From assembly GCF_963921235.1 (NCBI RefSeq), contig NC_086097.1, positions 55,368,001 through 55,432,000 on the forward strand: a stretch of DNA of 64,000 nt, read 5' to 3'. Under the pieces are notes generated by a model. The model was not told the DNA's origin, ran no database searches, and saw nothing but the letters and a program-made list of their open reading frames with translations. Every line of letters begins with the position of its first letter. Positions within the stretch are counted from its first letter, which is position 1. A program made the position numbers and the translations under genes. This stretch comes from Mobula hypostoma (lineage: Eukaryota). This document shows, one piece after another, positions 13,871-61,301 of this stretch.

Positions 13871-14732
13871 GACACAGGAAAGACTTCAGATGCTGGAATG
13901 GAGCAATATGCAAGTAATACTGGGGGGACTATGGAGGGAAATGAACGTGTGATGCTTTAGGCCAAGACCATTTATCAGCACTGGAAAGAGAGAGGCCATA
14001 ACCTAGAATAAAAAGATGGTGGGAGGGGGAGCACGTCCTGGTGGGTGATTGATGAAACTAACCGAAAGGGGGAAAATGGGTAGGTGGGGGAGGGGAGAGA
14101 AGTGGGAATGATATAAGAAGCTAGTAGGTGAAAGATGGAAGGGGAAAAGGATGAAAAAGATGGAATCTGATAGGAGAGGACAGAAGACCATGGAACAAAG
14201 GGAGGAAGGTGTGGGTGATGGGCAGTTTATGGGGGTGGGGGAGAGGAAACAGAAGGAATGAGGAAAAGGAGGTTACTGAAGGGGGGTGGCTACTTGAAGT
14301 TGGAGAAATTGATGATATCATCAGGTTGGAGACTACAAAACAAAATACACGATGTTGTTCCTCTAATCTTAGTCTAGCCTCCACTTAGCAGTGGGGAAGC
14401 CATGCACAGACAAGTTGGGAAGTGCAACTAAAATGTCTGGCCACCAGGAGATCCTGGTTGTTACAGTGTACAGACGTAAGGTGCCCAATGAAGTAATCAA
14501 CCACTCGACATCAAATCTCACTAATGTAGAGGACGCTGCATCGGATGCAAGAAATGACATCAATGGGCTTGCATGTGAAGTGCTGGCTCACCTGGAAGAA
14601 CTGTTTAGAGCCCTTAGTGGCAGTGAGAGAGGAGGTGTAGGGGCAGGTGTAACACTTGGGGCAGTTGCAGGGATGAGTGCCAGTAGGGACGAGCAGGCAA
14701 GGGAGTTGTGGAGAGAGCAATCCCTGTGGAAT
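13871..14732 (-). mobile_element. Older Penelope (Neptune-type) 3' fragment with GIY-YIG remnant and pLTR
   Basis: ORF 14511-14756 contains KCYTCPYTSSLT..QHFTC..VISCIRCSVLYISE and ORF 14121-14384 contains EARLRLEEQH. Both are homologous to the young copy at 56676-57002. Degenerate hammerhead at ~13955-13978. Confidence 0.8.
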
Positions 14733-44329: not shown

Positions 44330-45450
44330 TTGTTTTCCCTGGGTCTGGCAGTGCCAGCATGGCTCCGGGACCGAGGTTCACTAAGCTTTGCCGTTAACAT
44401 ATAAATCTACGCTTCCTTTGACCATCAGCGACAGCAGCAGGCGACAGTCAGTGGCAGGGGATGGTAGGGCGCCGACATCTGCCGCGGCAAATCGGAGCGC
44501 ATGGAGCCGACAGCTGCCGACGCCCCCCCCCCCCGCAAAGGCTCCTGCTGAAGTCCCGAGGGACGCGGCCTCCCGCTGACCCAACCCCGGCCGCATCAAC
44601 ACTCGCGCCCGTTGTCCTAATTGACTCGTTCCGCCGCTCGCGCTCCAATCGCGGCCCGTGCCAGGCGCTCGCGCTTCACGCAGCGGCTCCGTCTGTTGTG
44701 TTTACATAACACCCTCAGACGGGGAACCAGGAATAAAAATAATCTGCGGGGAAGCGGCGTTTGACAGGAGGGATTGCATTCTGCTCGGTTTTTTTCTCTC
44801 TCTCTCTGCGAGCAGAGCACTCCTGAAAGAAAGTCATGACAAGCCGCGTTATTAACACTGCCTGGCTGTGATGGGGAAAGTCTTTGTGTGGCGCAAGTGG
44901 CCGCGGGCTTGCCTCCCGGCTCTGTGGGAGTTGATAGGCTCCGCCCAGCCCCAGCCCCGCCCCCTCCCCCTCCGCCCGCCCGCCCGCCCCAGCTGACTAA
45001 TCTGAATGTTGACGCTTTCTTTCTCGGCGCAGGAAACATTTGGCCGATCGGCGCTGACGAGCTCCGCGGATCGGAACCCGGAGAGGACGCGGAAAGTGGT
45101 GCGAGTGGAGCACAAACAAAATCAGAACAACTCCAAAGCAACAGCAACACCAGCAGAAATAAAACTAATGATCTGCCTGTGGATACTGTCAGCCAGTAGC
45201 GAACGGTGAACCTCGACGAGGAGAGGAAAATCGAGCGCCACTCATGTTTTCATCAAGTCAGGAAGATCACAGCGCGCCCACCAAGGATCCCGTGAAGTAC
45301 GGAGAACTCATCGTCCTGGGGTGAGCGAGGGGAGATCGGGGTCATGGCTTCAGCTGGAGTCTCCGTTTGTGACTGTTTCCTGGCTAGATCACTGCATCTT
45401 GCTCTTCCTTCTGCGTCTCCCTGTGTGCCTGCGCCCTCCCTGCGCCAACA
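44330..45450 (+). promoter_or_regulatory. CpG island / promoter and 5' UTR of PELI2
   Basis: Abrupt GC- and CpG-rich, repeat-free segment in an otherwise CpG-depleted window. GC boxes (CCCCGCCCC ~44954, (CCGC)n ~44972-44990), CCAAT at ~44644. Directly upstream of and overlapping the first coding exon. Confidence 0.85.
45244..45320 (+). CDS. PELI2: Pellino-2 E3 ubiquitin ligase, first coding exon (77 nt, phase-2 donor); later exons not found in the window
   Basis: ATG TTT TCA TCA AGT CAG GAA GAT CAC AGC GCG CCC ACC AAG GAT CCC GTG AAG TAC GGA GAA CTC ATC GTC CTG GG|GTGAGC = MFSSSQEDHSAPTKDPVKYGELIVLG. Aligns without gaps to the PELI2 N-terminus as I recall it (MFSPGQEEHCAPNKEPVKYGELVVLG); PELI1 is two residues shorter here. 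Too short for the ORF track. Confidence 0.92.
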
Positions 45451-45894: not shown

Positions 45895-48120
45895 GTGTTA
45901 TGTAGTGACCCAGAGAAGCTTATGGTAAAGGGGCCCTTAGGAGGAACTGATCCATAATATGATCGAATTCACCCTTAGTTTAAGAAGGAGAAGATAAAAT
46001 TGGATGTATCAGTATTGTAGTGGAGTAGAGGGAATTAGGCATGCAATTGGAAGTTGGCCAAAGTTGATTGGAAAGAGACACTAGCAGGGGTAACAGAGAA
46101 CAACAATGGCTTGTGTTTCTGGGGGAAATTCAGAATGTGCAGAAAAGGTACATCCCAGCAATGAAGAAATGCTTTAAAGGGAGCATGAAGCAGCTATGGC
46201 TGACAAGGGAAGTCAAAGACAACGTAAAGGCAAAAGAGAGGACAAATAATATAGCAAAAATTAGTGGGAAGGATTAGGATGTTTTCATAAACCAACAGAT
46301 GGCAACTAAAGAGCCATAAAGAGAGAAAAGAAGAAATATAAAGGGAAGCTAGCTAATAATATAAAAGAGGATACAAACACTTTTTTTCAGATATACTGTA
46401 TAAAGAGTGAAAGAGAGACGTGAGTTGATATCAGACCTCTTGAAAAAGACACTGGAGAGGAACAAAGAAATGGCAGAGGAACTTAATGAGTTTTTTCTGT
46501 TGTGGAAGACACTAGCAGAATGCCAGAAATTCTGGGGGCAGGAGTGAGTGTCATTGCTATTACTAAGGAGAAGGTGCTTGGGAAGCTGAAAACCTGAAGG
46601 TAGATAAGTCACTTGGACTAGATGGACTACACTGCAGGATACTGGAAGAGGTACCTGAAGAGATAGTGGAGGCATTAGTAATGATGATTCAAGAATTGCT
46701 AGACTCTGGATGGTTCTGGAGGTCTCGAAAATTGCAAATGTAACTCCACTCTTTCAGAAGAAAGAGGATTACAGTATAGGGCAGTTAGCTGGACTTCAGT
46801 GGTTGGAAAGATTATTAAGGATGAGGTTTTCGGTACTTGGAGGTGTAATGAAAAATAGGCCAAAGTCTGCAAGGTTTTCCAAAGGGGAAATCTTGCCTGA
46901 TAAGTCTATTGGAATTCTTTGATGAAGTCACAGGCTGGATAGACAAAGGCAAGTCAGTGGATGTTGTTTATTTGGATTTTCAGAAGACCTTTGACAAGGT
47001 TTTGCACATGAGGCTGCTTAACAAGATACGAACCCATGGTATTACAGGAAAAGTTCTAGCATGGATAGAAGATAGGCAAAGAGTGAGAATAAGGGGGTCA
47101 TGTTCTGGTTGGTTGCCGATGACTAGTGGTGTGCCGCAGAGGTCGGTGTTGGGACTACTTCTTTTCACTTTGTATGTCAGTGATTTCAATGATTTGTGGC
47201 CAATCTTGTGGATGATACAAAGATAGGTGGAGCAGCAGGTAGTGTTGAGGAAGCAGGGTGACTGCAGAAGGACTTAGATTAGGAAAATGGGCAAAGTGGC
47301 ACATGAATATAGTGTAGGGAAGCACATGATCGTGCACTTTGGCAGAAGGAATAAAGTCATGGAATATTTTCTAAATGGGAAGAAAATACAAAAATCAGAG
47401 ATGCGGAGGGACTTAGGGATCCTCATGTAGGATTCCCTAAAGGTTAACTTGCAGGTTGAGTTAGTGGTAAGACAGGCAAATGCAATGTTAACATTCTTTC
47501 AAGAGGACTAGAATATAAAAGTGAGGATGTAATGCTGAGGCTTTGTAAGCATTGGGCAGACTGCACTTGTATTGTGAGCAGTTTTTGGCCCCTTATCTTA
47601 AAAAAGATATGCTGGCATTGGAGAAGGTCATGAGGAGGTTCACGTGATTGATCCCAGGAATGAAACAGTTATATGAAACATATGAGGAACATTTGATGCC
47701 TCCGAGCCTGTACACACTGGAGTTTAGAAGAATGAAGTGGATCCCATTGCAACCTATTGAATATTGAAAGGTCAGAATAAAGTGGATATGGAGAGGATGT
47801 TTCTTATAGTGGGGGAGTCTAGAACCAGAGGGAACAGCCTCAAAACTGGGGGGCATCCATTTAGAACAGAGATGAGGAAAGGTTTCTTCAGCCAGAGGGT
47901 GCTGAATCTGTGGAATTTATTGCCACTGACAGCTCTGCATGTTATTGGGCATATTTAAAGTGGAGTTTCATAGGTTCTTGATTAATCAGGGAGTTAAAAG
48001 TTATGAGGAGAAGTCTGAAGAATGGGGTTAAGAGGTATAATAAATCAGCCATGATGGAATGGCGGGGCAGACTGGATACGCTGAATGGCCTAATTCTGCT
48101 CCTGTGTCTAATGGTCTTAA
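45895..48120 (+). mobile_element. Degraded CR1 LINE, ~2.2 kb
   Basis: KIANVTPLFQK, VDVVYLDFQKTFDKVLH, TSGVPQRSVLG and FFSQRVLNLWNLLP motifs; tail AATGGCCTAATTCTGCTCCTGTGTCTAATGGTCTT. Confidence 0.9.
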
Positions 48121-48158
48121 ACTGTCTGGATATATAAACGACTAACTCCTGTATTTTC

Positions 48159-50752
48159 ACACACCCAGCCTCCCCCCTCCCCCCTCTGATCCCAGCTCTC
48201 ATCCGTGCCGAGTCTTTACCATCCCCTCCGACCTTCAACTGTCGGAGGCAGAACGCTCTGTTCTCAGTAAGGGCCTCATGTTTGTCCCCCTTCGCCCACA
48301 CCTCAGCGAGTTCCGTGTTCGCCATGATGCGGAACTTTTCTTTCTCCGTCTCCGAGCCTACTTCTTCAGCAAGGACTCTTCCATCCCCACTGATGACCCC
48401 TTCTCCCGTCTTCAACCCTCCTCTTCTTCATGGACACCCCGCTCTGGTCTTCTGCCTGCTCTGGATCTCTTTATCGCTAATTGCCCGCGGGACATCAACC
48501 GTCTCGACTTCACCGCACCTTGTCCCCATTCCAACCTCACTCCTTCGGAACGCTCTGCTCTCCACTCCCTCCGCACTAATCCTAACCTTATTATTAAACC
48601 CGCCGATAAGGGGGGTGCTGTTGTAGTCTGGTGTACTGACCTCTACCTTGCCGAGGCACAGCGACAACTCGCGGATACCTCCTCTTATTTACCCCTCGAT
48701 TATGACCCCACTAAGGAGAACCAGGCCATTGTCTCCCACACCATCACCGACCTTATCCGCTCAGGGGATCTCCCATCCACTGCTACCAACCTTATAGTTC
48801 CCACACCCCGCACTTCCCATTTCTACCTCCTACCCAAGATCCACAAACCTGCCTGTCCTGGCCGACCTATTGTCTCAGCTTGCTCCTGCCCCACCGAACT
48901 CGTTTCTGCATACCTCGACACGGTTTTATCCCCCCTTGTTCAATCTCTTCCTACCTATGTTCGTGACACTTCTCACGCTCTTAAACTTTTCGATGATTTT
49001 AAGTTCCCTGGACCCAACGCTTTATTTTCACCATGGATGTCCAGTTCTTATATACTTCCATCCCCCATCAGGAAGGTCTCAAAGCTCTACGCTTTTTGGA
49101 TTCCAGACCTAATCAGTTCCCCTCTACCACCACTCTGCTCCGTCTAGCGGAATTAGTCCTTACTCTTAATAATTTCTCCTTTGGCTCCTCCCACTTCCTC
49201 CAAACTAAAGGTGTAGCTATGGGCACCCGTATGGGTCCTAGCTATGCCTGCCTTTTTGTTGGGTTTGTGGAACAATCTATGTTCCATGCCTATTCTGGTA
49301 TCTGTCCCCCACTTTTCCTTTGCTACATCGACGACTGCATTGGCGCTGCTTCCTGCACGCATGCAGAACTCGTTGACTTTATTAACTTTGCCTCCAACTT
49401 TCATCCTGCCCTCAAGTTTACCTGGTCCATTCCCGACACCTCCCTCCCCTTTCTAGATCTTTCTGTCTCTGTCTCTGGAGACAGCTTATCCACTGATGTC
49501 TACTATAAGCCTACTGACTCTCACAGCTATCTGGACTATTCTTCTTCTCACCCTGTCTCTTGCAAAAACGCCATCCCCTTCTCGCAATTCCTCCGTCTCC
49601 GCCACATCTGCTCTCAGGATGAGGCTTTTCATTCTAGGACGAGGGAGATGTCTTCCTTTTTTAAAGAAAGGGGCTTCCCTTCCTCCACTATCAACTCTGC
49701 TCTTAAACGCATCTCCCCCATTTCACGTACACCTGCTCTCACTCCATCCTCCCGCCACCCCACTAGGAATAGGGTTCCCCTGGTCCTAACCTACCACCCC
49801 ACCAGCCTCCGGGTCCAACATATTATTCTCCGTAACTTCCGCCACCTCCAACGGGATCCCACCACTAAGCACATCTTTCCTTCCCCCCCCTCTGCATTCC
49901 ACAGGGATCGCTCCCTACGCACCTCCCTTGTCCATTCGTCCCTCCCATCCCTCCCCACTGATCTCCCTCCTGGCACTTATCTGTGTAAGCGGAACAAGTG
50001 CTACACATGCCCTTACACTTCCTCCCTTACCACCATTCAGGGCCCCAAACAGTCCTTCCAGGTGAGGCAACACTTCACCTGTGAGTCGGCTGGGGTGAGT
50101 TGCGGGCTGTGTAAGAGGGAAGGGTTAGATTGATGGAGACCGCTTTGCTGAACACCTACGCTCTGTCTGCCAGAGAAAGCAGGATCTCCCAGTGGCCACA
50201 CATTTTAATTCCACATCCCATTCCCATTCTGACATGTTTATCCACGGCCTCCTCTACTGTAAAGATGAAGCCACACTCAGGTTGGAGGAACAACACCTTA
50301 TATTCCGTCTGGGTAGCCTCCAACCTGATGGCATGAACATCGACTTCTCTAACTTCCGCTAATGCCCCACCTCCCCCTTGTACCCCATCTGTTACTTATT
50401 TTTATGCACACATTCTTTCTCTCACTCTCCTTTTTCTCCCTCTGTCCCTCTGAATATACCTCTTGCCCATCCTCTGGGTCCCACCCCCCTGTCTTTCTTC
50501 CCGGACCTCCTGTCCCATGATCCTCTCGTATCCCCTTTTGCCTATCACCTGTCCAGCTCTTGGCTCCATCCCTCCCCCTCCTGTCTTCTCCTATCATTTT
50601 GGATCTCCCCCTCCCCCTCCAACTTTCAAATCCCTTACTCACTCTTCCTTCAGTTAGTCCTGACGAAGGATCTCGGCCTGAAATGTCGACTGCACCTCTT
50701 CCTACAGATGCTGCCTGGCCTGCTGTGTTCACCAGCAACTTTGATGTTTGTT
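48159..50752 (+). mobile_element. Penelope-like element (Neptune-type), 5'-truncated, RT nearly intact (frameshift ~49030), GIY-YIG motif deleted
   Basis: IIKPADKGGAVVV, FYLLPKIHKP..PGRPIVS, MDVQFLYTSIPH, GVAMGTRMGPSYA, YIDD and a CKRNKCYTC linker; pLTR with hammerhead; 12-bp TSD TCCTGTATTTTC (48147-48158, 50753-50764). Confidence 0.93.
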
Positions 50753-50769
50753 TCCTGTATTTTCCTTTT

Positions 50770-51840
50770 TGTTTATGCATGTCCTCATTTTTTTGTTTGA
50801 GCAGCTGGGCCTTTTTGGTTGTGGTTACCTTTTTTCCTTCAGAATTATTTTGTCCAGCTTCAATTGGTTGCTTTCTATCAGTTTCTTTGCCCCATTCTCA
50901 TTTCCCACTCTCTCTTCAATAAGATTCAATATTTTACAGTTCTCACTCTTTCAGCTCAACCCCTGCCACCTTCCCACTGTACCATCCTCTCTCTTTCTCA
51001 TGACCTCTCCTACCATCTTCTCTATCCTGCCCACCCTCCTGTTCTTCCTCTCATTCTTCCACCCTCATATTTTCCTTCTTTACTCTTCCATTCAGTCTCT
51101 CTCTTTCCTTTTTCCTATTTCTCTCTCTCCTTCCGTCTTTCTTCCTTATCTCTTATTCACTTTCCATTAATCACCCTAACAGCCAGCAGCCCACTCTTTC
51201 ACACTCATGTTACCCATTCTCCCTTCCTTTTTTCTGCTTTTTTGTCCGAACTATGACTTTGAAGGAGACCATTTGGCCTGTCATTTGTATTCCAGCTCTT
51301 GGAGCAGTCACATTGACCCCATTCCTTCCTCACCTGTTCTTTCCCTCTCTCTTGTATTATTGCTTCCCATCTATCCACCCACACTCTTGCTCTTACTCTT
51401 CCCTGCTCTTACTTTTTCTCTCTCTCTCCACCTGCTCTCGCTGTCTTTCTTCTGCCTGTCTTTCCCCTCTCTGCCCTGCTGCTGTTCCTCTCTCTTATCT
51501 ACTTGCCCATCACATCCTCTCTTTTTCCAGACCACACCATTCTCTTACCTTCCCATCTTCACATACTTGTCTCTTCCCTTCACTCTCCCTACAACCAGAA
51601 ACCTCTATCCTCCATCCCTTCTCTCTCCACCACCTGCCTTCACCTCTGACCCCTTTCCTCACTCCTTTCCTATAATCCCACCTCCCCCATTATTCCTCTG
51701 TATCACCCTTACAATACTGTATCCTCATTTCCTCACTTCCTCAAGGCATTCCTATACTCTCCCTCTTCTGTTCACTCTTTTCACACTCCTCCATGCCCTC
51801 GTTTTCCTACTGACACCTTGCCACAGCACCCTATGCCACA
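50770..51840 (+). repeat. ~1.1-kb pyrimidine-rich low-complexity tract
   Basis: Plus strand is overwhelmingly C/T with no clear period, which produces spurious L/S/F/P-rich ORFs. Confidence 0.85.
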
Positions 51841-53719
51841 TTTAAAATGTGCCTGGCTGTACTTGAAGAACTGGAGCTGCAGGGCAATGAACTGCTAGAA
51901 GCTGAGATTAGGAGGGTAGCCCCTTTACAACCAACTCTATGTGGTAAGCTGAATTGTCTCCTTCCATTTTTGAAATTTTCTGTGATTCACTCATCCATCC
52001 AATACTTGCTTCTCATCTTTCACCTTGCTACCCTTTTCCATCTCATTTTATACTCTATATCCCACTGTTTCTGATCCTCTTGCCCCCCCCGCCCCAATTT
52101 ACGTTTTTGCTAAACATGTTATCTTTCTTATTTTTGTTGTGGTAAGATCTTCTTCGTATTTTCTGCAGTATTGTCTAGTTAATCTGTATCTCTCCCTATC
52201 TATGAACTCTCCTCATGTCATTCTATCTATGGACATCTTAAACTATTTCAGCTTAATTTAAGCTTGTTTTGTTATTTCTCACTTAAGTGATTTGTAGTTT
52301 GAAAATAGACTAATTTATGTTGCAACATTTGGTCACTTTTAACAATGGCATTTTTTAAAGACATGTCTATTTATCATATACAAAATTCCAAGACAACAAC
52401 TTGTCTTAAAACAAACCTCCTTTCATGAGTGAATAGCTTTTAGGAATAGCAATAATTTTCACATTTAAAAGTGAAAAATAAGTAGTTGTATATATCAGAA
52501 ATTTTTTCTGTTTTTAAATTAAAACTGCATGTACTCTGCAGTTTTCTGCATGGATAGTATATTTTGTTATTTTATAGTTTGGGAACTTTCTCTTTATGAT
52601 GTTTATTTCCTCAGTTCTGTTGATCACTCATAAAACACTAGGGATTTATTTGTACTCTTTCAGAATGAACTAATTATTGAGTTTCAAATTATGGGTATCT
52701 GTTCTTGTTAACAGTTCTCCATCTTCTCCATCATATTTCTTCAATGACTCTTTATTCATAACTATATAGGAGTTACCATTGACAGTTTAATGTAAGAAGG
52801 TTTTTATAAAGTCAAGCTGTAATTGACTTGGATTTTTAAAAAAATTATGTATTTCACAAAAGGCCCCAGTTGAAAGGTAATTAAATTAATTGGGTCTTCT
52901 CAATATGATTTTAGATTTTCTTTAAAGTAAAATTATATACAGTGCAATTATTAACTAAATTCTCGCAGTGCAGAATAATTACCTATAGTTGTATTGTGCC
53001 TATGAACATACAACTTTATAATAGCAACTTTTTTCCTAGAATTAGATATTGAAATTGAAATGATTAACATTCTTTGATTTTAGAGAGTACGCAACATAAT
53101 AGATTGCATACATTACTTAAGAATTTGTTAATATTTTTCTTTGTAATGTGTAATATAGTTAGCATTAGTGAATTACCACATACGTGCAGAGATCTGTTTT
53201 AATATATTGCATTCCCATAGTTGTACTGCACTGAAAGAGGCCCTTCTGGTTACAAATTCATGCTTCCAGTTGCACCAATACACACTAATCCCATTTACCC
53301 ACATTAGGTCTGCTGCCTTCTATATCTTTATATCTGCTCTACTGTCTCCTTTGGGAGCACACTCCAGATTCCTGCCACACTGTGTGAAAAAAATTCCCCC
53401 TCATATCCCATCGAAACCTCCTACCTTTCACGTTAAAATAATACCTCTTATCTTAAGCACACCCAACAAAAGAAAAAGTTTATTGCCATTATCTCCTTAA
53501 TTCTTTCAGGCTGCTCCTCAGCTTCCTCGACTCCACAGAAAACAAATACAGCCAATCCAATTTCTTCCTTATAACTGAAATGCTGAAATCCAGGCAATTT
53601 CCTGGTGAATCTCTTCTGCATTCTCTCCATTCTTCCAGAACTGCAGACAAAGCTCCAAAGTATGACCTAATGTTATATAAGGTTTTAACATGATTCCCTG
53701 GCTCTTATTTTGTGTGCCA

Positions 53720-54784
53720 ATGCTCACAGAAGGCAAAGAGTAGTTGTAGCCAGGTCATATTCTGCATGGAGGTTGGTGACCAGTGGTGTGCCTCAAGGAT
53801 CTGTTCTGGGACCCTTTCTCTTCGTGATTTTTATAAATGACCTGGATGAGGAAGTGGAGGGATGGGTTAGTAAATTTGCTGATGAAACAAAGGTTGGGGG
53901 TGTTGTGGATAGTGTGGCGGGCTGTCAGAGGTTACAGCAGGACATTGATAGGATGCAAAACTGGGCTGAGAAGTGGCAGATGGAGTTCAACCCAGATAAG
54001 TGTGAGGTGGTTCATTTTGGTAGGTCAAATATGCTGGCAGAATATACTATTAATGGTAAGGCTGTTGGCAGTGTGGAGGATCGGAGGGATCTTGGCGTCC
54101 AAGTCCATAAGACACTCAAAGCTGCTGCATAGGTTGACTCTGTGGTTAAGAAGGCATACGGTGCATTGGCCTTTATCAATCATGGAATTGAGTTTAGGAG
54201 CCAAGAGGTAATGTTGCAGCTATATAGGACCCTGGTCAGACCCCATTTGGAGAACTGTGCTCAGTTCTGGTTGCCTCACTATAGGAAGGATGTGGAAACC
54301 ATAGAAAGGGTGCAGAGGAGATTTACAAGGATGTTGCCTGGATTGGGAAGCACGCCTTATGAGAATAGGTTGAGTGAACTTGGTCTTTTTTCCTTGGAAT
54401 GACAGAGGATGAGAGGTGACCTGATAGAGGTGTATAAGATGATAAGAGGCATTGATCATGTGGATAGTCAGAGGTTTTTTCCCAGGGCTGAAATGGCTAA
54501 CACGAAAGGGCACAGTTTTAAGGTGCTTGGAAGTAGGTACAGAGGAAATGTCAGGAGTAAGTTTTTAACGCAGAGAATGGTGAGTGCGTGGAATGGGCTG
54601 CTGGTGATGGTGGTGGAGGCGGAAACGATAGGGTTTTTTAATAGATTCCTAGATAGGTACATGGAGCTTAGAAGAATAGAGGGCTGTGGGTCACCCTAGT
54701 TAATTTCTAAGGTAAGTACATGTTCGGCACAGCATTGTGGGCTGAAGGGCCTGTATGGTGCTGTAGGTTTTCTATGTTTCTATG
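53720..54784 (+). mobile_element. Young CR1 LINE 3' portion
   Basis: SGVPQGSVLGPFLFVIFINDL, SKFADETK, LYRTLVRPHLE and RGDLIEVYK motifs; tail TTTCTATGTTTCTATG. Confidence 0.93.
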
Positions 54785-54899
54785 AAGGCAAACATCCTAT
54801 ATGCCTTCTACATCTGTTGCCAGTTTTTGGGATTTACAGACTTGTACCTGAAAGTCTCTCCATTTATGAAAACACCTCAGGGCCCACCCTTTTACTGTA

Positions 54900-55426
54900 C
54901 AGGTTTCCCCCGCTATCCAAAAGTAGAGCGTTCCTATGAAACCTTTCATAAGCCGAAATGGCGTAAAGTGAAGAAGCAATTACCATTAATTTATGTGGGA
55001 AAAATTTTTGAGCGTTCCCAAATCCAAAAAATAACCTACCAAATCATACCAAATAGCACATAAAACCTAAAATAACACTAGCATATAGTAAAAGAAGGAA
55101 TGATATGATAAATACACAGCCCATATAAAGTAGAAATAATCTATGTACAGTGTAGTTTCACTTACCAGAATCGGGAAGATTTAGCCAAAACCGATATGTA
55201 AAAAAAAATCGGCACGTACACGCATGCGTGCACACCTGCCCGCGCAAGGCTTCACTGTCATGGTAGTCTTTCTCAGGGTAAACACAAGTTTAAAGCGGCG
55301 CCTTTTTTCATAAAAGTGAAAATCCTCTTCGGATTTCTTTCGGTTTAGCGAAAACAGGTACTAATGTAGGTCTTTCCTAAAAGTGAAGCGGTGTAAGGCG
55401 AACTTTCATAAAACGGGGGACACCTG
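54900..55426. mobile_element. Tigger/pogo-like MITE
   Basis: TA-CAGGTTTCCCCCG ... CGGGGGACACCTG-TA; non-coding interior. Confidence 0.85.
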
Positions 55427-55717
55427 TATATGTGTGACCCTTGTTTACCCTCTCAAAATGCATCATTTCAGTCTCATCAGGATTGAAGTCCATTTGCTAT
55501 TGCTCCATCTAACTTTTCAGCTGATTGAAGTTAAATTATAGCCTTAGGCACCCTCCCCATTAGAGCGGGTGCAGAAGAAATTTACCAGGGTGCTGCTTGG
55601 ATTAGAGAACATGTATTATGAGGAGAGGTTGAGGGAGCTAAGAGTTTTTCTCCTTGGAGAGAGACAGGATCAGAGGCGACTTGATACAGGGAATAAAGTT
55701 ATGAAAGGTATAGATAG

Positions 55718-57421
55718 TGAACGCAGCAGGCCAGGCAGCATCTCTAGGAAGAGGTACCGAGGTTTCGGGCCGAGACCCTTCGTCAGGACTCACTGAAGGA
55801 AGAGTTAGTAAGAGATTTGAAAGTGGGAGGAGGAGGGGGAGATCCAAAATGATAGGAGAAGACAGGAGGGGGAGGGATGGAGCCAAGAGCTGGACAGGTG
55901 ATTGGCAAAGGGGATACGAGAGGATCATGGGACAGGAGGTCCGGGGAGAAAGACGGGGGGGGGGAACCAGAGGATGGGCAAGGGGTATAGTCAGAGGGAC
56001 AGAGGGAGAAAAAGGAGAGTGAGAGAAAGAATGTGTGTATAAAAATAAATAACAGATGGGGTATGAGGTGGAGGTGGGGCATTAGTGGAAGTTAGAGAAG
56101 TCGATGTTCATGCCATCAGGTTGGAGGCTACCCAGACGGAATATAAGGTGTTGTTCCTCCAACCTGAGTGTGGTTTCATCTTTACAGTAGAGGAGGCCGT
56201 GGATAGACATGTCAGAATGAGAATGGGATGTGGAATTAAAATGTGTGGCCACTGGGAGATCCTGCTTTCTCTGGCGGACAGAGCGTAGGTGTTCAGTAAA
56301 GCAGTCTCCCAGTCTGCGTCGGGTCTCGCCAATATATAGAAGGCCACATCGGGAGCACCGGACGCAGTATATCACCCCAGCCGACTCACAGGTGAAGTGT
56401 CCTCACCTACCACCCCACCAGCCTCCGGGTCCAACATATTATTCTCCGTAACTTCCGCCACCTCCAACGGGATCGCACCACTAAACACATCTTTCCCTTC
56501 CCCCCTCTGCTTTCTGCAGGGATCGCTCCCTACGTGACTCCCTTGTCCATTCGTCCTCCCATCCCTCCCCACTGATCTCCCTCCTGGCACTTATCCTTGT
56601 AAACAGAACAAGTGCTACACATACCCTTACACTTCCTCCCTTACCACCATTCAGGGCCCCGAACAGTCCTTCCAGGTGAGACGACACTTCACCTGTGAGT
56701 CGGCTGGGGTGATATACTGCGTCCGGTGCTCCCGATGTGGCCTTCTATATATTGGCGAGACCCGACGCAGACCGGGAGACCGCTTTACTGAATGCCTACG
56801 CTCTGTCCGCGAGAGAAAGCAGGATCTCCCAGTTGCCACACATTTTAATTCCATATCCCATTCCCATTCTGACATGTCTATCCACGGCCTCCTCTACTGT
56901 AAAGATGAAGCCACACTCAGGTTGGAGGAACAACACCTTATATTCCGTCTGGGTAGCCTCCAACCTGATGGCATGAACATCGACTTCTCTAACTTCCACT
57001 AATGCCCCACCTCCACCTCGTACCCCATCTGTTATTTATTTTTATACACACATTCTTTCTCTCACTCTCCTTTTTCTCCCTCTGTCCCTCTGACTATACC
57101 CCTTGCCCATCCTCTGGTTCCCCCCACCCCCGACTTTCTCCCCGGACCTCCTGTCCCATGATCCTCTTGTATCCCCTTTGCCAATCACCTGTCCAGCTCT
57201 TGGCTCCATCCCTCCCCCTCCTGTCTTCTCCTATCATTTTGGATCTCCCCCTCCCACTTCCAAATCTCTTACTAACTCTTCCTTCAGTTAGTCCTGACGA
57301 AGGGTCTCGGCCTGAAACGTCGACTGTACCGCTTCCTAGAGATGCTGCCTGGCCTGCTGCGTTCACCAGCAACTTTGATGTGTGTTGCTTGAATTTCCAG
57401 CATCTGCAGAATTCCTGTTGT
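55718..57421 (+). mobile_element. Penelope insertion with inverted 5' copy (minus 55718-~56407, plus ~56401-57421), encoding a GIY-YIG domain on both arms
   Basis: ORFs 56082-56375(-) and 56676-57002(+) contain IYCVRCSRCGLLYIGETRRR..EH/EC..LEEQHLIF..GMN. 14-bp TSD AAAGGTATAGATAG (55704-55717, 57422-57435). Junction microhomology CCTCACCT. Confidence 0.93.
57290..57325 (+). ncRNA. Minimal type I hammerhead ribozyme motif in a Penelope pLTR (best-preserved copy)
   Basis: AGTC-CTGACGA-AGGgtctcggCCT-GAAA-C-GTC-GACT: stem I AGTC/GACT, core CUGANGA and GAAA, GUC cleavage triplet, palindromic ACGU mini stem III. Activity not shown. Confidence 0.75.
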
Positions 57422-57699
57422 AAAGGTATAGATAGACTAGAAAACCAGCACCTTTTTCTCGGGTCAGCAGTGACCAATACCAGAGAACATCTATTTAAGG
57501 TGTGTAAGGGAATGTTTAAGTGAGGTGTCAAAAGGTAGATTTTTTGTTCACACGAAAGTGAAGTGAGGGAGCCTGGAACTCACTGTTGGGGGTGGTAGAG
57601 GCTGATCCAATAAGAATACTTAAAAGACTCTTAGATAGGCATATGAATGTAAGAAAATTGGAGAGTTGCGGGCTGTGTAGGAGGGAAGGGTCAGATTGA

Positions 57700-58280
57700 T
57701 GGAGACCGCTTTGCTGAACACCTACGCTCTGTCCGCCAGAGAAAGCAGGATCTCCCAGTGGCCACACATTTTAATTCCATATCCCATTCCCATTCTGACA
57801 TGTCTATCCACGGCCTCCTCTACTGTAAAGATGAAGCCACACTCAGGTTGGAGGAACAACACCTTATATTCCGTCTGGGTAGCCTCCAACCTGATGGCAT
57901 GAACATCGACTTCTCTAACTTCCGCTAATGCCCCACCTCCCCCTCGTACCCCATCTGTTATTTATTTTTATACACACATTCTTTCTCTCACTCTCTTTCT
58001 CCCTCTGTCCCTCTTAATATACCCCTTGCCCATCCTCTGGGTTCCCCCCCCCCATCTTTCTTCCCGGACCTCCTGTCCCATGATCCTCTCGTATCCCCTT
58101 TGCCAATCACCTGTCCAGCTCTTGGCTCCATCCCTCCCCCTCCCCCTCCAACTTTCAAATCTCTTACTAGCTCTTCCTTCAGTTAGTCCTGACGAAGGGT
58201 CTCGGCCTGAAACGCCGACTGTACCTCTTCCTAGAGATGCTGCCTGGCCTGCTGCGTTCCCAGCAACTTTGATGTGTGTT
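57700..58280 (+). mobile_element. Short 5'-truncated Penelope copy (end of GIY-YIG + pLTR)
   Basis: Highly similar to 50134-50752 and 56774-57386; possible TSD GATTGA. Confidence 0.9.
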
Positions 58281-58473
58281 GATTGAATTGGTTTATATTG
58301 GTTGGCAATAATTGAAACTCCTGTATGCCTAAGTCATTGATGTATGTCACAAACATCAAGGGTCCAGCATTCCAACATCCTTCATAAGGCTAAAATGCTC
58401 CATATTATCACTGTCTCTCTCCCTGAACTCTCCATCTATTGTCTCTTTCTGCTGGTGAGTGTTGATGTAAGTA

Positions 58474-59669: not shown

Positions 59670-59901
59670 TGCAAACAAGAGAAAATTGGCATATGCTGAA
59701 AATACGAGAAACACACACATAAAAAATGCTGAAGGAACTCAGCAGGCCAGGCAGCACCTATGGAAAAGAGTACAGTCGATGTTTCAGGCTGAGACCCTTC
59801 AGCAGTCCTGCTAAAGGGTCTCGGCCCGGAACATCAACTGTACCCTTTTCCATAGATGCTGCCTGGCCTGCTGAGTTCCTCCAGAATTTTGTGTGTGTTG
59901 C
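59670..59901 (-). mobile_element. Older miniature Penelope-derived palindromic element
   Basis: Imperfect inverted arms centred at ~59805 with two decayed hammerhead cores (CTGCTGAAGGGTCTCAGCCTGAAAC on minus). Tail on the left. TSD ATCTACTTTT (59660-59669, 59905-59914). Confidence 0.8.
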
Positions 59902-61301
59902 TTCATCTACTTTTCTCAGGTCTTGTCTTGTATTACCTGTATATTTTCGGCAGTACAATTTTTAGTTATGATTTACAAACAAGAACGTTTATTTCTCGAT
60001 GCTATGCTCAAATGAATTTATGAACTGTCAATATAGTTTTCAGTTGGAGAAATGATAAAGGATTGTATTTTGTTTTTCAATCAGGCAGCAATTTTCTGCA
60101 ATTACGTATGTACAATTAGAAATAGAAATGCAAGATGTTATATTCCTGCAAAAGGTTCACAAAAGTGACCTTCCTACTTGGTTTAATATTCAGATATTCA
60201 GAAGAAGTTAAGTTTCTGCACTTTTCATAGATGCAGACTTAGCTTGTAATTTTTTATAAACCTCTTTAACAGTAGTACGTCTTAGTAACTTTTTCATAAA
60301 TACAATGGTTTTGGCACTAATGTTTAACTTCTACAAGAGCAGAGTTACTTTACTCTTTGTGTTTTAGTTATCATTAGAAATGTTTTCTTTCCTTTAATTT
60401 ATTGTTAGTTGGTTTTTCTTTTCTCTATTTCTTTCTGTACCTGATTTATAATTGATATTCTAACAGGCAGTTCCTGATGTAGACACTGCATAATTATTTA
60501 ATAATTCTTGAATTTGATAAGTTGAGGAAATATGCAGTTTCTTGCCGTGTCATACTTGTCACTGCTGTCATGTCCTGTTAAGAATGTTGTATATATCAGA
60601 TGATTGTTTGACAGGAACACATTATGCAAAACCCCACAGAAAGTTTATGGGAAACCACAGGTCTGCTCGGACTCTTGATGTTTGTGGCTCAGAGCAAAGT
60701 CCAGCACACTGCAGTTCTTAAATGAAAATAGAACTAGAAACTGACAACATTTCTGAATTTTGTGATGTTACTGCCGAAGTATCCATTGAACAAAGTTGGA
60801 ACGGCAATATTAATCACTTCATATGTGATCTTTCAATAAATTGGGAGCTTTGTTTTAATTTAATTTCCTTCATTTATCATTACATGTTCAGCCTCTTTCT
60901 TCCTTTAAAGTTGGTACTGAACTGTCTCACAGCTCTGTGAAATTTAAAGGAACAATATGGAGATAATACAATTTACATGATAGGGGAAAAATGTTTGGAT
61001 GTGGGCCAAATACTGAAGGTTGCAGAACAAATTAATGAGGCGGTTAAGAAAATGCCTAGATATTTGCCGTGTAAAGGGGGTCACTGAATTAAAAAAAATA
61101 TTATATTATGTCTTTACAGTTTATTGTTTAGATCCCATTTGCAGTATTGAGCTGGATTTTGTGGTTGTAATGACAGTAAAAATACCAGTACCAGCAATCA
61201 TACAACCATGTAACTGGCAGTAATTATGTGTAGTTAAGCTAGAAGCTGAAAATTGGTAATGCCCTTTATTTCTTCCCTTCATTAGTCAAGATTATAGAAT
61301 A

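What the first reader, a model, noticed from the sequence alone, without database searches (positions are those of the whole stretch)
50090..50140. Penelope GIY-YIG motif replaced by 37 bp copied from the flank of another Penelope 7.5 kb away
Seen: the 48159-50752 element follows the family sequence to ...GAGTCGGCTGGGGT. It then reads GAGTTGCGGGCTGTGTAAGAGGGAAGGGTTAGATTGAT|GGAGACCGC, which is the CR1-to-Penelope junction found at 57663-57708 (2 mismatches). About 70 nt encoding IYCVRCSRCGLLYIGET are lost. Just downstream the two copies share variants absent from the 55718-57421 pair (CGCTAA, CTCCCCCT, AATATACC, TCTTTCTTCCCGG), but they differ near the 3' end. The whole element keeps one 12-bp TSD. 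Inference: either a local ectopic gene conversion or break repair overshot the homology into CR1, or the RT switched template onto PELI2 intronic RNA carrying that junction. Either way one insertion's junction was written into a neighbouring copy and removed its nuclease motif.
Basis: partly seen in the sequence, partly recalled or inferred. Interest (0 to 1): 0.7.

Follow-up and report, generated by a model that had tools for sequence, protein, structure and literature searches.

The report
Neighbour's junction patched over retroelement hairpin
In a fish genome, a dead Penelope-type jumping gene lost a 64-base hairpin-forming piece of its nuclease gene and carries instead 38 bases copied from beside a neighbouring copy 7.6 kb away, a one-off copying scar that may show a polymerase detouring around a hairpin.

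Summary
Confirmed, with corrections. 38 nt (50097-50134; 2 mismatches to 57663-57700) replace 64 family nt in Penelope-like copy A, removing the GIY-YIG core and shifting the frame. A is already dead (5'-truncated, RT frameshift). Copy B is the donor: its LINE flank continues upstream.

A's last 360 nt differ from B's haplotype, so little beyond the junction was copied. A's 3' junction occurs in two organisms. No major chimeric subfamily is seen; the patch itself was not displayed in the contigs.

New here: the lost 64 nt form one of the element's two strongest RNA hairpins (-29.3 kcal/mol; rank 11 of 2586 windows). Both breakpoints and B's own 5' end lie 4-6 nt outside the stem.

Best reading: a polymerase copying the + strand stalled at the hairpin, detoured through B into the LINE, and rejoined past the stem at a 2-nt microhomology. 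RT on Pellino pre-mRNA at insertion (0.45) versus DNA-level repair or replication later (0.42) is unresolved. The scan noted other one-off patches in this genome, not this one. Single neutral scar; modest interest.

The parts
45244..45320 (+). First coding exon of a Pellino gene (GT donor at 45321). A, C/D and B lie downstream, inferred to be in intron 1; A and B are sense to it.
   Evidence: MFSSSQEDHSAPTKDPVKYGELIVLG; no further exon motif found downstream; PDB 3egb Pellino-2, E 5e-5
48147..48158 (+). Left copy of A's 12-bp target-site duplication
48159..50752 (+). Copy A: 5'-truncated Penelope-like element (RT + GIY-YIG), with a frameshift in RT near 49010-49020; 3' end at the tail-less site
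50097..50134 (+). 38-nt LINE (CR1-type) patch replacing 64 family nt. GA at 50097-50098 is shared with the family sequence (4 of 5 nt match at 50094-50098).
50135..50394 (+). Part of A closest to B (4 of 260 differences); possible copied tract, not proven
50395..50752 (+). A's own 3' haplotype, different from B (19 of 320 differences; 6 of 11 family-polymorphic sites differ)
50753..50764 (+). Right copy of A's TSD. The 3' junction and flank are held by contigs of organism A (0 differences) and organism B (5 differences).
55561..57700 (+). 3' part of an old LINE (CR1 label recalled, not from a call) that hosts C/D and B: pieces 55561-55717 and 57422-57700
   Evidence: 74% and 61% identity to the 54302-54690 copy; RVT_1, E 1e-13, just upstream of that copy
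55718..57421 (.). Inverted pair D (-) / C (+) of the same family with a 14-bp TSD (55704-55717 / 57422-57435); holds the intact nuclease segment
56717..56770 (+). Hairpin inside the 64-nt segment (56711-56774) whose counterpart A has lost
57663..57700 (+). Donor of the patch: LINE flank directly 5' of copy B
57701..58280 (+). Copy B: Penelope-like 3' fragment, 5'-truncated 4 nt from the hairpin base; possible 6-bp TSD (57694 / 58281)

Best explanation
A local template detour around a hairpin, most likely made by the Penelope RT while A was being inserted. (1) B inserted first into an old LINE in Pellino intron 1 and was 5'-truncated at the 3' base of a strong RNA hairpin in the nuclease coding region (position shown; stalling inferred). 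(2) RT making A started at the usual internal site on a family RNA of another haplotype (haplotype shown) and stalled at the same stem (inferred). (3) The cDNA end moved to the nearest hairpin-free template with the same sequence: B in the sense, nascent Pellino pre-mRNA, or B's DNA. It ran 36-38 nt into the LINE flank (product shown; template type inferred). (4) It returned to the family RNA just past the other foot of the hairpin at a GA (GG-GA) microhomology and copied another 1.94 kb (junction shown). (5) Integration gave one 12-bp TSD (shown). The result is a neutral scar in an already dead copy. Local copying from B by either route has my probability of about 0.87; the RT version about 0.45.
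For: The junction is duplicated to the nucleotide, and B's flank is continuous LINE. The lost 64 nt fold into one stem, 56717-56770: RNA -29.3 kcal/mol, 0 of 200 shuffles. It ranks 11 of 2586 windows, 10 of them the same stem; 22 of 2586 windows have a single comparably stable stem within 6 nt of both ends. As ssDNA it is weaker (-11.2; rank 46 of 2586). B's 5' end is 4 nt from the stem base. The donor is sense within the same Pellino transcription unit. A's distal haplotype differs from B, as expected if the main template was another RNA. L1 insertions with RT template switches, two-RNA inserts and locally templated DNA are reported (PMC11702581, passages; 10.1101/2025.02.02.635956, passages). 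PLEs can mobilise intron-containing sequence (PMC3846280, passages).
Against: It needs two switches, the second on only 2 nt (4 of 5) of microhomology. The hairpin was noticed after the fact; in a 91-nt window its z falls to -2.0 (9 of 200 shuffles). Given the right break, a left break within 6 nt of the stem foot has about 7% chance anyway. It needs B to be older than A, but their private changes are similar (11 vs 9, my tally, counted). A weak B-like tract next to the junction (Fisher p 0.04, change-point permutation p 0.065) fits DNA gap repair slightly better. A DNA polymerase on a single-stranded + strand gives the same geometry. The hairpin is not kept in the decayed copy at 14502-14556 (-11.8, different fold). 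No RNA holder of the junction was shown.
Confidence: 0.45

Rival explanations
1. DNA-level event after both copies existed. Either a break in A was repaired by one-sided invasion of B, synthesis ran past the homology into the LINE, and the strand rejoined the left end by microhomology (non-canonical HR termination); or a replicative polymerase stalled at the ssDNA hairpin and switched to B and back (FoSTeS/MMBIR).
For: Long homology on one side and 2-nt microhomology on the other is the signature described in PMC5104497 (abstract, passages and section 7). Template switches over 7-32 kb with microhomology are described in PMC4888836 (passages). Conversion among Alus acts within about 10 kb (PMC8230782, passages). 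A-B differences are 6 of 298 next to the junction vs 19 of 320 distally (p 0.014), while A-C, A-D and B-C show no such step (p 0.26-0.49). It needs no order of insertion and has a long time window. The hairpin also folds as ssDNA (z -2.5 to -3.0).
Against: Plain break repair does not predict a left end at the other foot of the hairpin (about 7% by chance). The ssDNA stem is only -11.2 kcal/mol. No rare derived allele is shared by A and B: the three sites where A=B differ from C=D in 50135-50394 show no family alternative at 15% or more in the listed rows. The tract signal is post hoc (permutation p 0.065).
Confidence: 0.42
2. A small chimeric subfamily carrying the LINE patch exists, and A is one of its daughters or was converted by an unlinked member; closeness to B is coincidence.
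For: The depth bound is loose: the bin over the patch holds 1.7-2.6% of its neighbour's depth, in a family with very high depth. No genome was available to count junction k-mers.
Against: The junction must have arisen where B sits, since the LINE continues upstream of it. A daughter landing 7.6 kb from the origin by chance needs a huge subfamily. Family contigs end loose at 50098 and 50135 with intact family letters in X1, X5 and X6, and the bin depth is below the 5.7% that a 2-nt overhang alone would give.
Confidence: 0.07
3. Assembly artefact: reads of B collapsed into A.
For: No contig or read spanning the left junction (50096/50099) was displayed; the table was cut.
Against: The patch differs from B at 2 of 38 sites and the next 260 nt at 4 sites; the distal haplotype is not B's. 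A collapse would not create the left microhomology junction. A's 3' junction and flank match an independent contig with 0 differences over 214 nt.
Confidence: 0.03
4. Reverse direction: B is a daughter of an A-like chimeric RNA that used its LINE piece to anneal into a LINE target.
For: A and B end at the same family position.
Against: B's distal haplotype is not A's. The shared 3' end is a common family end seen in other copies in the window and is explained by fixed internal RT start sites (PMC11167929). This reading leaves the origin of A's patch unexplained.
Confidence: 0.02

Closest known systems
[quoted passage not shown] 2016, PMC5104497; abstract, passages, section 7 read)
   Same: Copying from a homologous donor runs into sequence that has no match at the second end, which is resected and rejoined by microhomology.
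   Different: Shown there with I-SceI reporters in mouse ES cells, with sister-chromatid tracts of kilobases. Here it is a natural germline scar of 38 nt from a paralogous retroelement, with both ends at a hairpin.
FoSTeS/MMBIR templated insertions (review PMC4888836, passages) and repair-associated template switches (10.1101/2025.02.28.640809, abstract)
   Same: A short templated insert from a nearby locus plus a deletion, with microhomology at a junction and flanking homology guiding the switch.
   Different: One junction here is 260-620 nt of true homology, and the donor is a truncated copy ending at the obstacle.
RT template-switch chimeric retro-insertions of L1 (U6/L1, two-RNA inserts, locally templated pieces; 10.1101/2025.02.02.635956 and PMC11702581, passages)
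   Same: Foreign sequence in the same orientation inside one TSD-flanked insertion.
   Different: Here the foreign piece is internal, needs a switch out and back, comes from the host intron beside the target, and the element is Penelope-like, not L1.
Gene conversion between neighbouring TE copies (Alu; PMC8230782, passages)
   Same: Non-reciprocal transfer between same-family copies less than 10 kb apart, with the recipient's flanks and TSD kept.
   Different: The transfer includes non-homologous flank and a deletion; no diagnostic converted allele was shown.
Canonical Penelope/Poseidon-type PLEs (PMC8557442, passages; PMC11167929, parts 1-2 of 4)
   Same: RT followed by C-terminal GIY-YIG with cysteines between GIY and YIG, 5' truncation, an inverted 5' arm, and two alternative 3' ends with an optional ~35-nt tail.
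   Different: I found no description of a hairpin at the GIY-YIG codons as a truncation or switch site.

Membership tests
Penelope-like element (EN+) | RT followed by a C-terminal GIY-YIG endonuclease in one ORF | tested here: met
   RVT_1 E 1e-4 and GIY-YIG E 0.013, both below Pfam gathering scores; Atlas GIY-YIG clusters at 0.96; domain order
Penelope-like element (EN+) | Two cysteines of the CCHH motif between GIY and YIG | tested here: met
   C and D read VIYCVRCSRCGLLYIG; feature defined in PMC8557442. This is the part lost from A.
Penelope-like element (EN+) | Inverted 5'-truncated arm and optional 30-40-bp tail | tested here: met
   D/C inverted pair; tail present in C and the 5066 copy, absent from A and most others
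Penelope-like element (EN+) | Hammerhead ribozyme in the pLTR | tested here: inconclusive
No hammerhead family among Rfam matches up to E 5 in 48100-58400; a single fold was not supportive.
Penelope-like element (EN+) | RT phylogeny with the Penelope/Poseidon clade | not tested
   No tree was built.
Classical ectopic gene conversion | Homology at both ends of the tract | tested here: not met
   The left end has only GA (4 of 5 nt) and 64 nt are lost
Classical ectopic gene conversion | Donor-specific alleles in the recipient | tested here: inconclusive
   No rare shared allele; identity step p 0.014-0.065 depending on the test
Non-canonical HR termination / MMBIR | Long homology at one junction, microhomology or added bases at the other, and loss at the second end | tested here: met
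Non-canonical HR termination / MMBIR | Event post-dates insertion of the recipient | tested here: inconclusive
   A is present in organism B, but the junction state there was not displayed. Divergence intervals overlap: 6 of 298 vs 4 of 184.
RT template-switch chimera | One TSD around the chimeric insertion, with all parts in sense orientation | tested here: met
   (necessary, not sufficient)
RT template-switch chimera | Chimera present from the moment of insertion, and donor older than recipient | not testable with these tools
   Needs orthologous assemblies; private-change counts of 11 vs 9 give no order
Amplified chimeric subfamily | Junction at many unlinked loci | tested here: inconclusive
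   A large subfamily is excluded and a small one is not; two copies in the window

The most novel reading that the evidence does not exclude
The Penelope RT bypassed a strong hairpin in its own RNA by a double template switch. It used the nascent host pre-mRNA of the intron it was inserting into as a bridge, at an older copy that had itself been truncated at that hairpin. The GIY-YIG-coding hairpin would then be a family-wide RT pause site that sets truncations and switches, and neighbouring transcribed copies would write their flanks into new insertions.
Probability: 0.4. Interest if true: 0.6.

Novelty: new member of a known kind. Interest (0 to 1): 0.35.

Why it matters
As a single event it is a neutral scar in a dead element. 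It matters only as a natural footprint of mechanism. The steps of PLE insertion after priming are still unvalidated (PMC11167929), so a hairpin that marks both a 5' truncation and a switch-out/switch-back junction gives a concrete prediction for a family with very many copies. It also shows that a retroelement 5' junction, usually treated as unique to a locus, can be duplicated into a neighbour, which can mislead insertion-marker and orthology work. If the event proves to be DNA-level, it is a tidy germline example of a repair outcome known mostly from reporter assays.

Tried and rejected
Own genome: none is held, so the genome-wide k-mer count could not be run.

Metagenome scan for the LINE 20-mer: 1 hit, a chance match in GC-rich bacterial-looking DNA.

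Read laying (4 of the 24 runs listed; contigs only): no contig over the patch was displayed (382,064 pieces and 3,161 loose ends not shown). My bin started on the 2-nt microhomology, so its depth is only an upper bound. No row for B's two letters (50114, 50126) was listed; 8 rows were hidden and counting was flagged incomplete in X1, X5 and X6. One unlisted T>C place in X5 cannot be located and was not used. No RNA holder listed.

Whether the LINE continues to the right of B: none of 5 other LINE ends in the window aligned to 58282-58340 better than shuffles (37-287 of 300 shuffles scored as well). B's TSD is therefore unsettled: a 6-bp GATTGA, or none.

The shared 3' end of A and B as evidence of copying: rejected, because it is a common family end.

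Hairpin conservation in the decayed copy at 14502-14556: not kept.

Rfam found nothing relevant.

Paper searches with no hit holding all terms: Penelope-like + template switch + microhomology + GIY-YIG; one-sided invasion + gene conversion + retrotransposon + flanking; Penelope + gene conversion + cartilaginous fish + CR1. Searches gave listings, none describing this event by title or abstract start. No supplements were read; Figs S9-S10 of PMC11702581 may bear on locally templated pieces.

Full report
Observation. The window holds four related Penelope-like pieces near the finding: A (48159-50752, +), the inverted pair D/C (55718-57421) and B (57701-58280, +). A follows the family to 50096, carries 38 nt (50097-50134) matching 57663-57700 with two mismatches, and resumes at the same nucleotide at which B begins. 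The match occurs twice in the window and never in 100 shuffles; chance is about 1e-14. The replaced family segment is 64 nt (C 56711-56774) and encodes the GIY-YIG core with its cysteines. The net loss of 26 nt shifts the frame, with a stop at 50131-50133. The first two letters of the patch, GA, equal the next two family letters, and 4 of 5 match over 50094-50098. A keeps an exact 12-bp TSD. A has no 5' repeat and has a frameshift in RT near 49010-49020, so it was not an active copy regardless of the patch.

Identity and context. RT and GIY-YIG are supported weakly by Pfam (E 1e-4 and 0.013, below the gathering scores) and clearly by the Atlas for the nuclease (0.96). The inverted arm and optional tail fit the PLE description in PMC8557442 (passages) and the two RT start sites in PMC11167929 (parts 1-2 of 4). 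B's left flank is part of a longer LINE 3' region (55561-55717 and 57422-57700) that aligns at 74% and 61% to another LINE copy in the window, whose upstream part has an RT hit (E 1e-13). The name CR1 is recalled. In A the same 38 nt stand alone, so B is the donor. A Pellino first exon lies at 45244-45320 on the + strand, and my motif search found no later exon in the window. A and B are therefore inferred to be sense within intron 1.

Independent data. No genome is held. Public runs of two coded organisms hold 0.66-0.80 of the words of 47700-51200. I laid contigs of 4 of the 24 listed runs on 49887-50936. One contig of organism A covers 50723-50936 with no difference; this run may be the assembled sample. 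One contig of organism B covers 50733-50936 with 5 differences, including 20 nt of the element end. A is thus present in both organisms and predates their split (4 of 184 flank differences). Family contigs end loose at 50098 and 50135 with the intact family letters in all three DNA runs. The bin over the patch has 1.7-2.6% of its left neighbour's depth, below the 5.7% expected from the 2-nt overhang alone. This excludes a major chimeric subfamily but not a small one. No contig across the patch itself was displayed, so its state in organism B is unknown.

Shared variants. At 50358, 50375 and 50478 no alternative letter is listed at 15% or more, so A and B carry the common state and C/D the derived one. 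At 50454 the family is split 43-49%, and at 50499 A's letter is 70-78% in the three DNA runs. Meanwhile A differs from B at six family-polymorphic sites from 50395 onward (50395, 50406, 50543, 50633, 50640, 50705). A's 3' 360 nt were therefore not copied from B. Next to the junction A and B differ at 6 of 298 sites, against 19 of 320 distally (p 0.014); the control pairs show no such step (p 0.26-0.49). But the change-point permutation gives p 0.065, no rare allele is shared, and B, C and D also agree at those polymorphic sites. A tract of up to 260 nt is suggested, not shown.

The hairpin. The 64 lost nucleotides fold as one stem-loop, 56717-56770 in C, and identically in D. As RNA it gives -29.3 kcal/mol, z -5.2, 0 of 200 shuffles; four neighbouring 64-nt windows gave z from +0.5 to -2.5. 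As ssDNA it gives -11.2 kcal/mol, z -2.5 to -3.0. Among 2586 windows of 64 nt over A's upstream part and C, it ranks 11th as RNA (ten of the eleven are the same stem) and 46th as DNA; 22 (RNA) and 41 (DNA) windows have a single comparably stable stem within 6 nt of both ends. The breakpoints lie 4-6 nt left and 4 nt right of the stem, and B's own 5' truncation is that right-hand point. Cautions: this was noticed after the fact; in a 91-nt window z is -2.0, although the stem stays in the centroid; given the right break, the left one would fall this close about 7% of the time; the decayed copy at 14502-14556 does not keep the fold.

Mechanism. Every workable model has a polymerase copying the + strand from right to left, leaving its template near the stem's 3' foot, following B into the LINE for 36-38 nt, and rejoining beyond the 5' foot at GA. 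In the RT version this happens during A's insertion, with the family RNA as main template and B in the sense pre-mRNA (or B's DNA) as bridge. It explains the hairpin-bounded loss, A's own distal haplotype and the single TSD. It needs two switches and B older than A, which private-change counts (11 vs 9) cannot show. L1 precedents for RT switches, two-RNA inserts and locally templated pieces exist (passages), and PLEs move intron-containing sequence (passages). In the DNA version, one-sided invasion with microhomology rejoining (PMC5104497) or fork template switching (PMC4888836) acts later. Proximity under 10 kb fits Alu conversion (PMC8230782), and the weak tract fits too, but the left break at the stem foot is less expected. 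I put local copying at about 0.87, split 0.45 RT and 0.42 DNA. These odds are judgement, not computation.

Comparison and novelty. It works like a templated insertion with deletion, or a template-switch chimera. It fails the definition of classical gene conversion, because one end lacks homology. My ten counted paper searches listed no description of this event or of a GIY-YIG-coding hairpin as a PLE pause site; subscription journals are mostly absent from that library. Earlier scan notes on this genome report Penelope insertions carrying unspliced host sequence and a one-off host patch inside a Penelope copy. They are unchecked; they raised my prior for the RT route slightly and also show that such patches are not rare.

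Verdict. A real, local, one-off copying scar of a known kind, with one testable twist. Interest 0.35; 0.6 if the RT detour and a family-wide pause site are confirmed.

Noticed in passing
window:50723-50936: A's 3' junction is held by contigs of two different coded organisms (0 and 5 differences), so the insertion is a shared, older marker.
   Followed up: partly
window:56910-56973 (A 50270-50333): A second strong stem (RNA -29.7 kcal/mol, the top 64-nt window) lies just downstream, near where A stops resembling B; it is another candidate switch point.
   Followed up: no
window:55718-57421: The arms C and D share one 14-bp TSD yet differ at 9 of 260 and 8 of 326 aligned sites, about as much as separate insertions do in the coding part.
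   Followed up: no
window:58130-58150: B lacks 33 nt that lie between two CTCCCCCTCC repeats in A, C and D, a microhomology-bounded deletion.
   Followed up: partly
window:4971-5197 and 59698-59915: Two short head-to-head inverted pairs of the Penelope-like terminal repeat, 13 and 2 nt apart; the second is more diverged.
   Followed up: no
window:14296-14735: Older, 66-72% identical copy of the nuclease region on the minus strand, without the hairpin.
   Followed up: partly
window:17418-17998: Tandem array with a 41-bp period.
   Followed up: no
window:11038-13388: Fragmented minus-strand ORFs that look, from recall, like a non-LTR retrotransposon with RT, a zinc knuckle and a restriction-like endonuclease.
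   Followed up: no
window:44400-45320: GC-rich promoter-like region and first coding exon of the Pellino gene; the paralog label PELI2 rests on one PDB hit.
   Followed up: partly
window:50765-52300: Long C/T-rich low-complexity stretch directly right of A.
   Followed up: no
L001:401-420: Chance 20-mer match in a GC-rich bacterial-looking metagenome contig; unrelated.
   Followed up: yes
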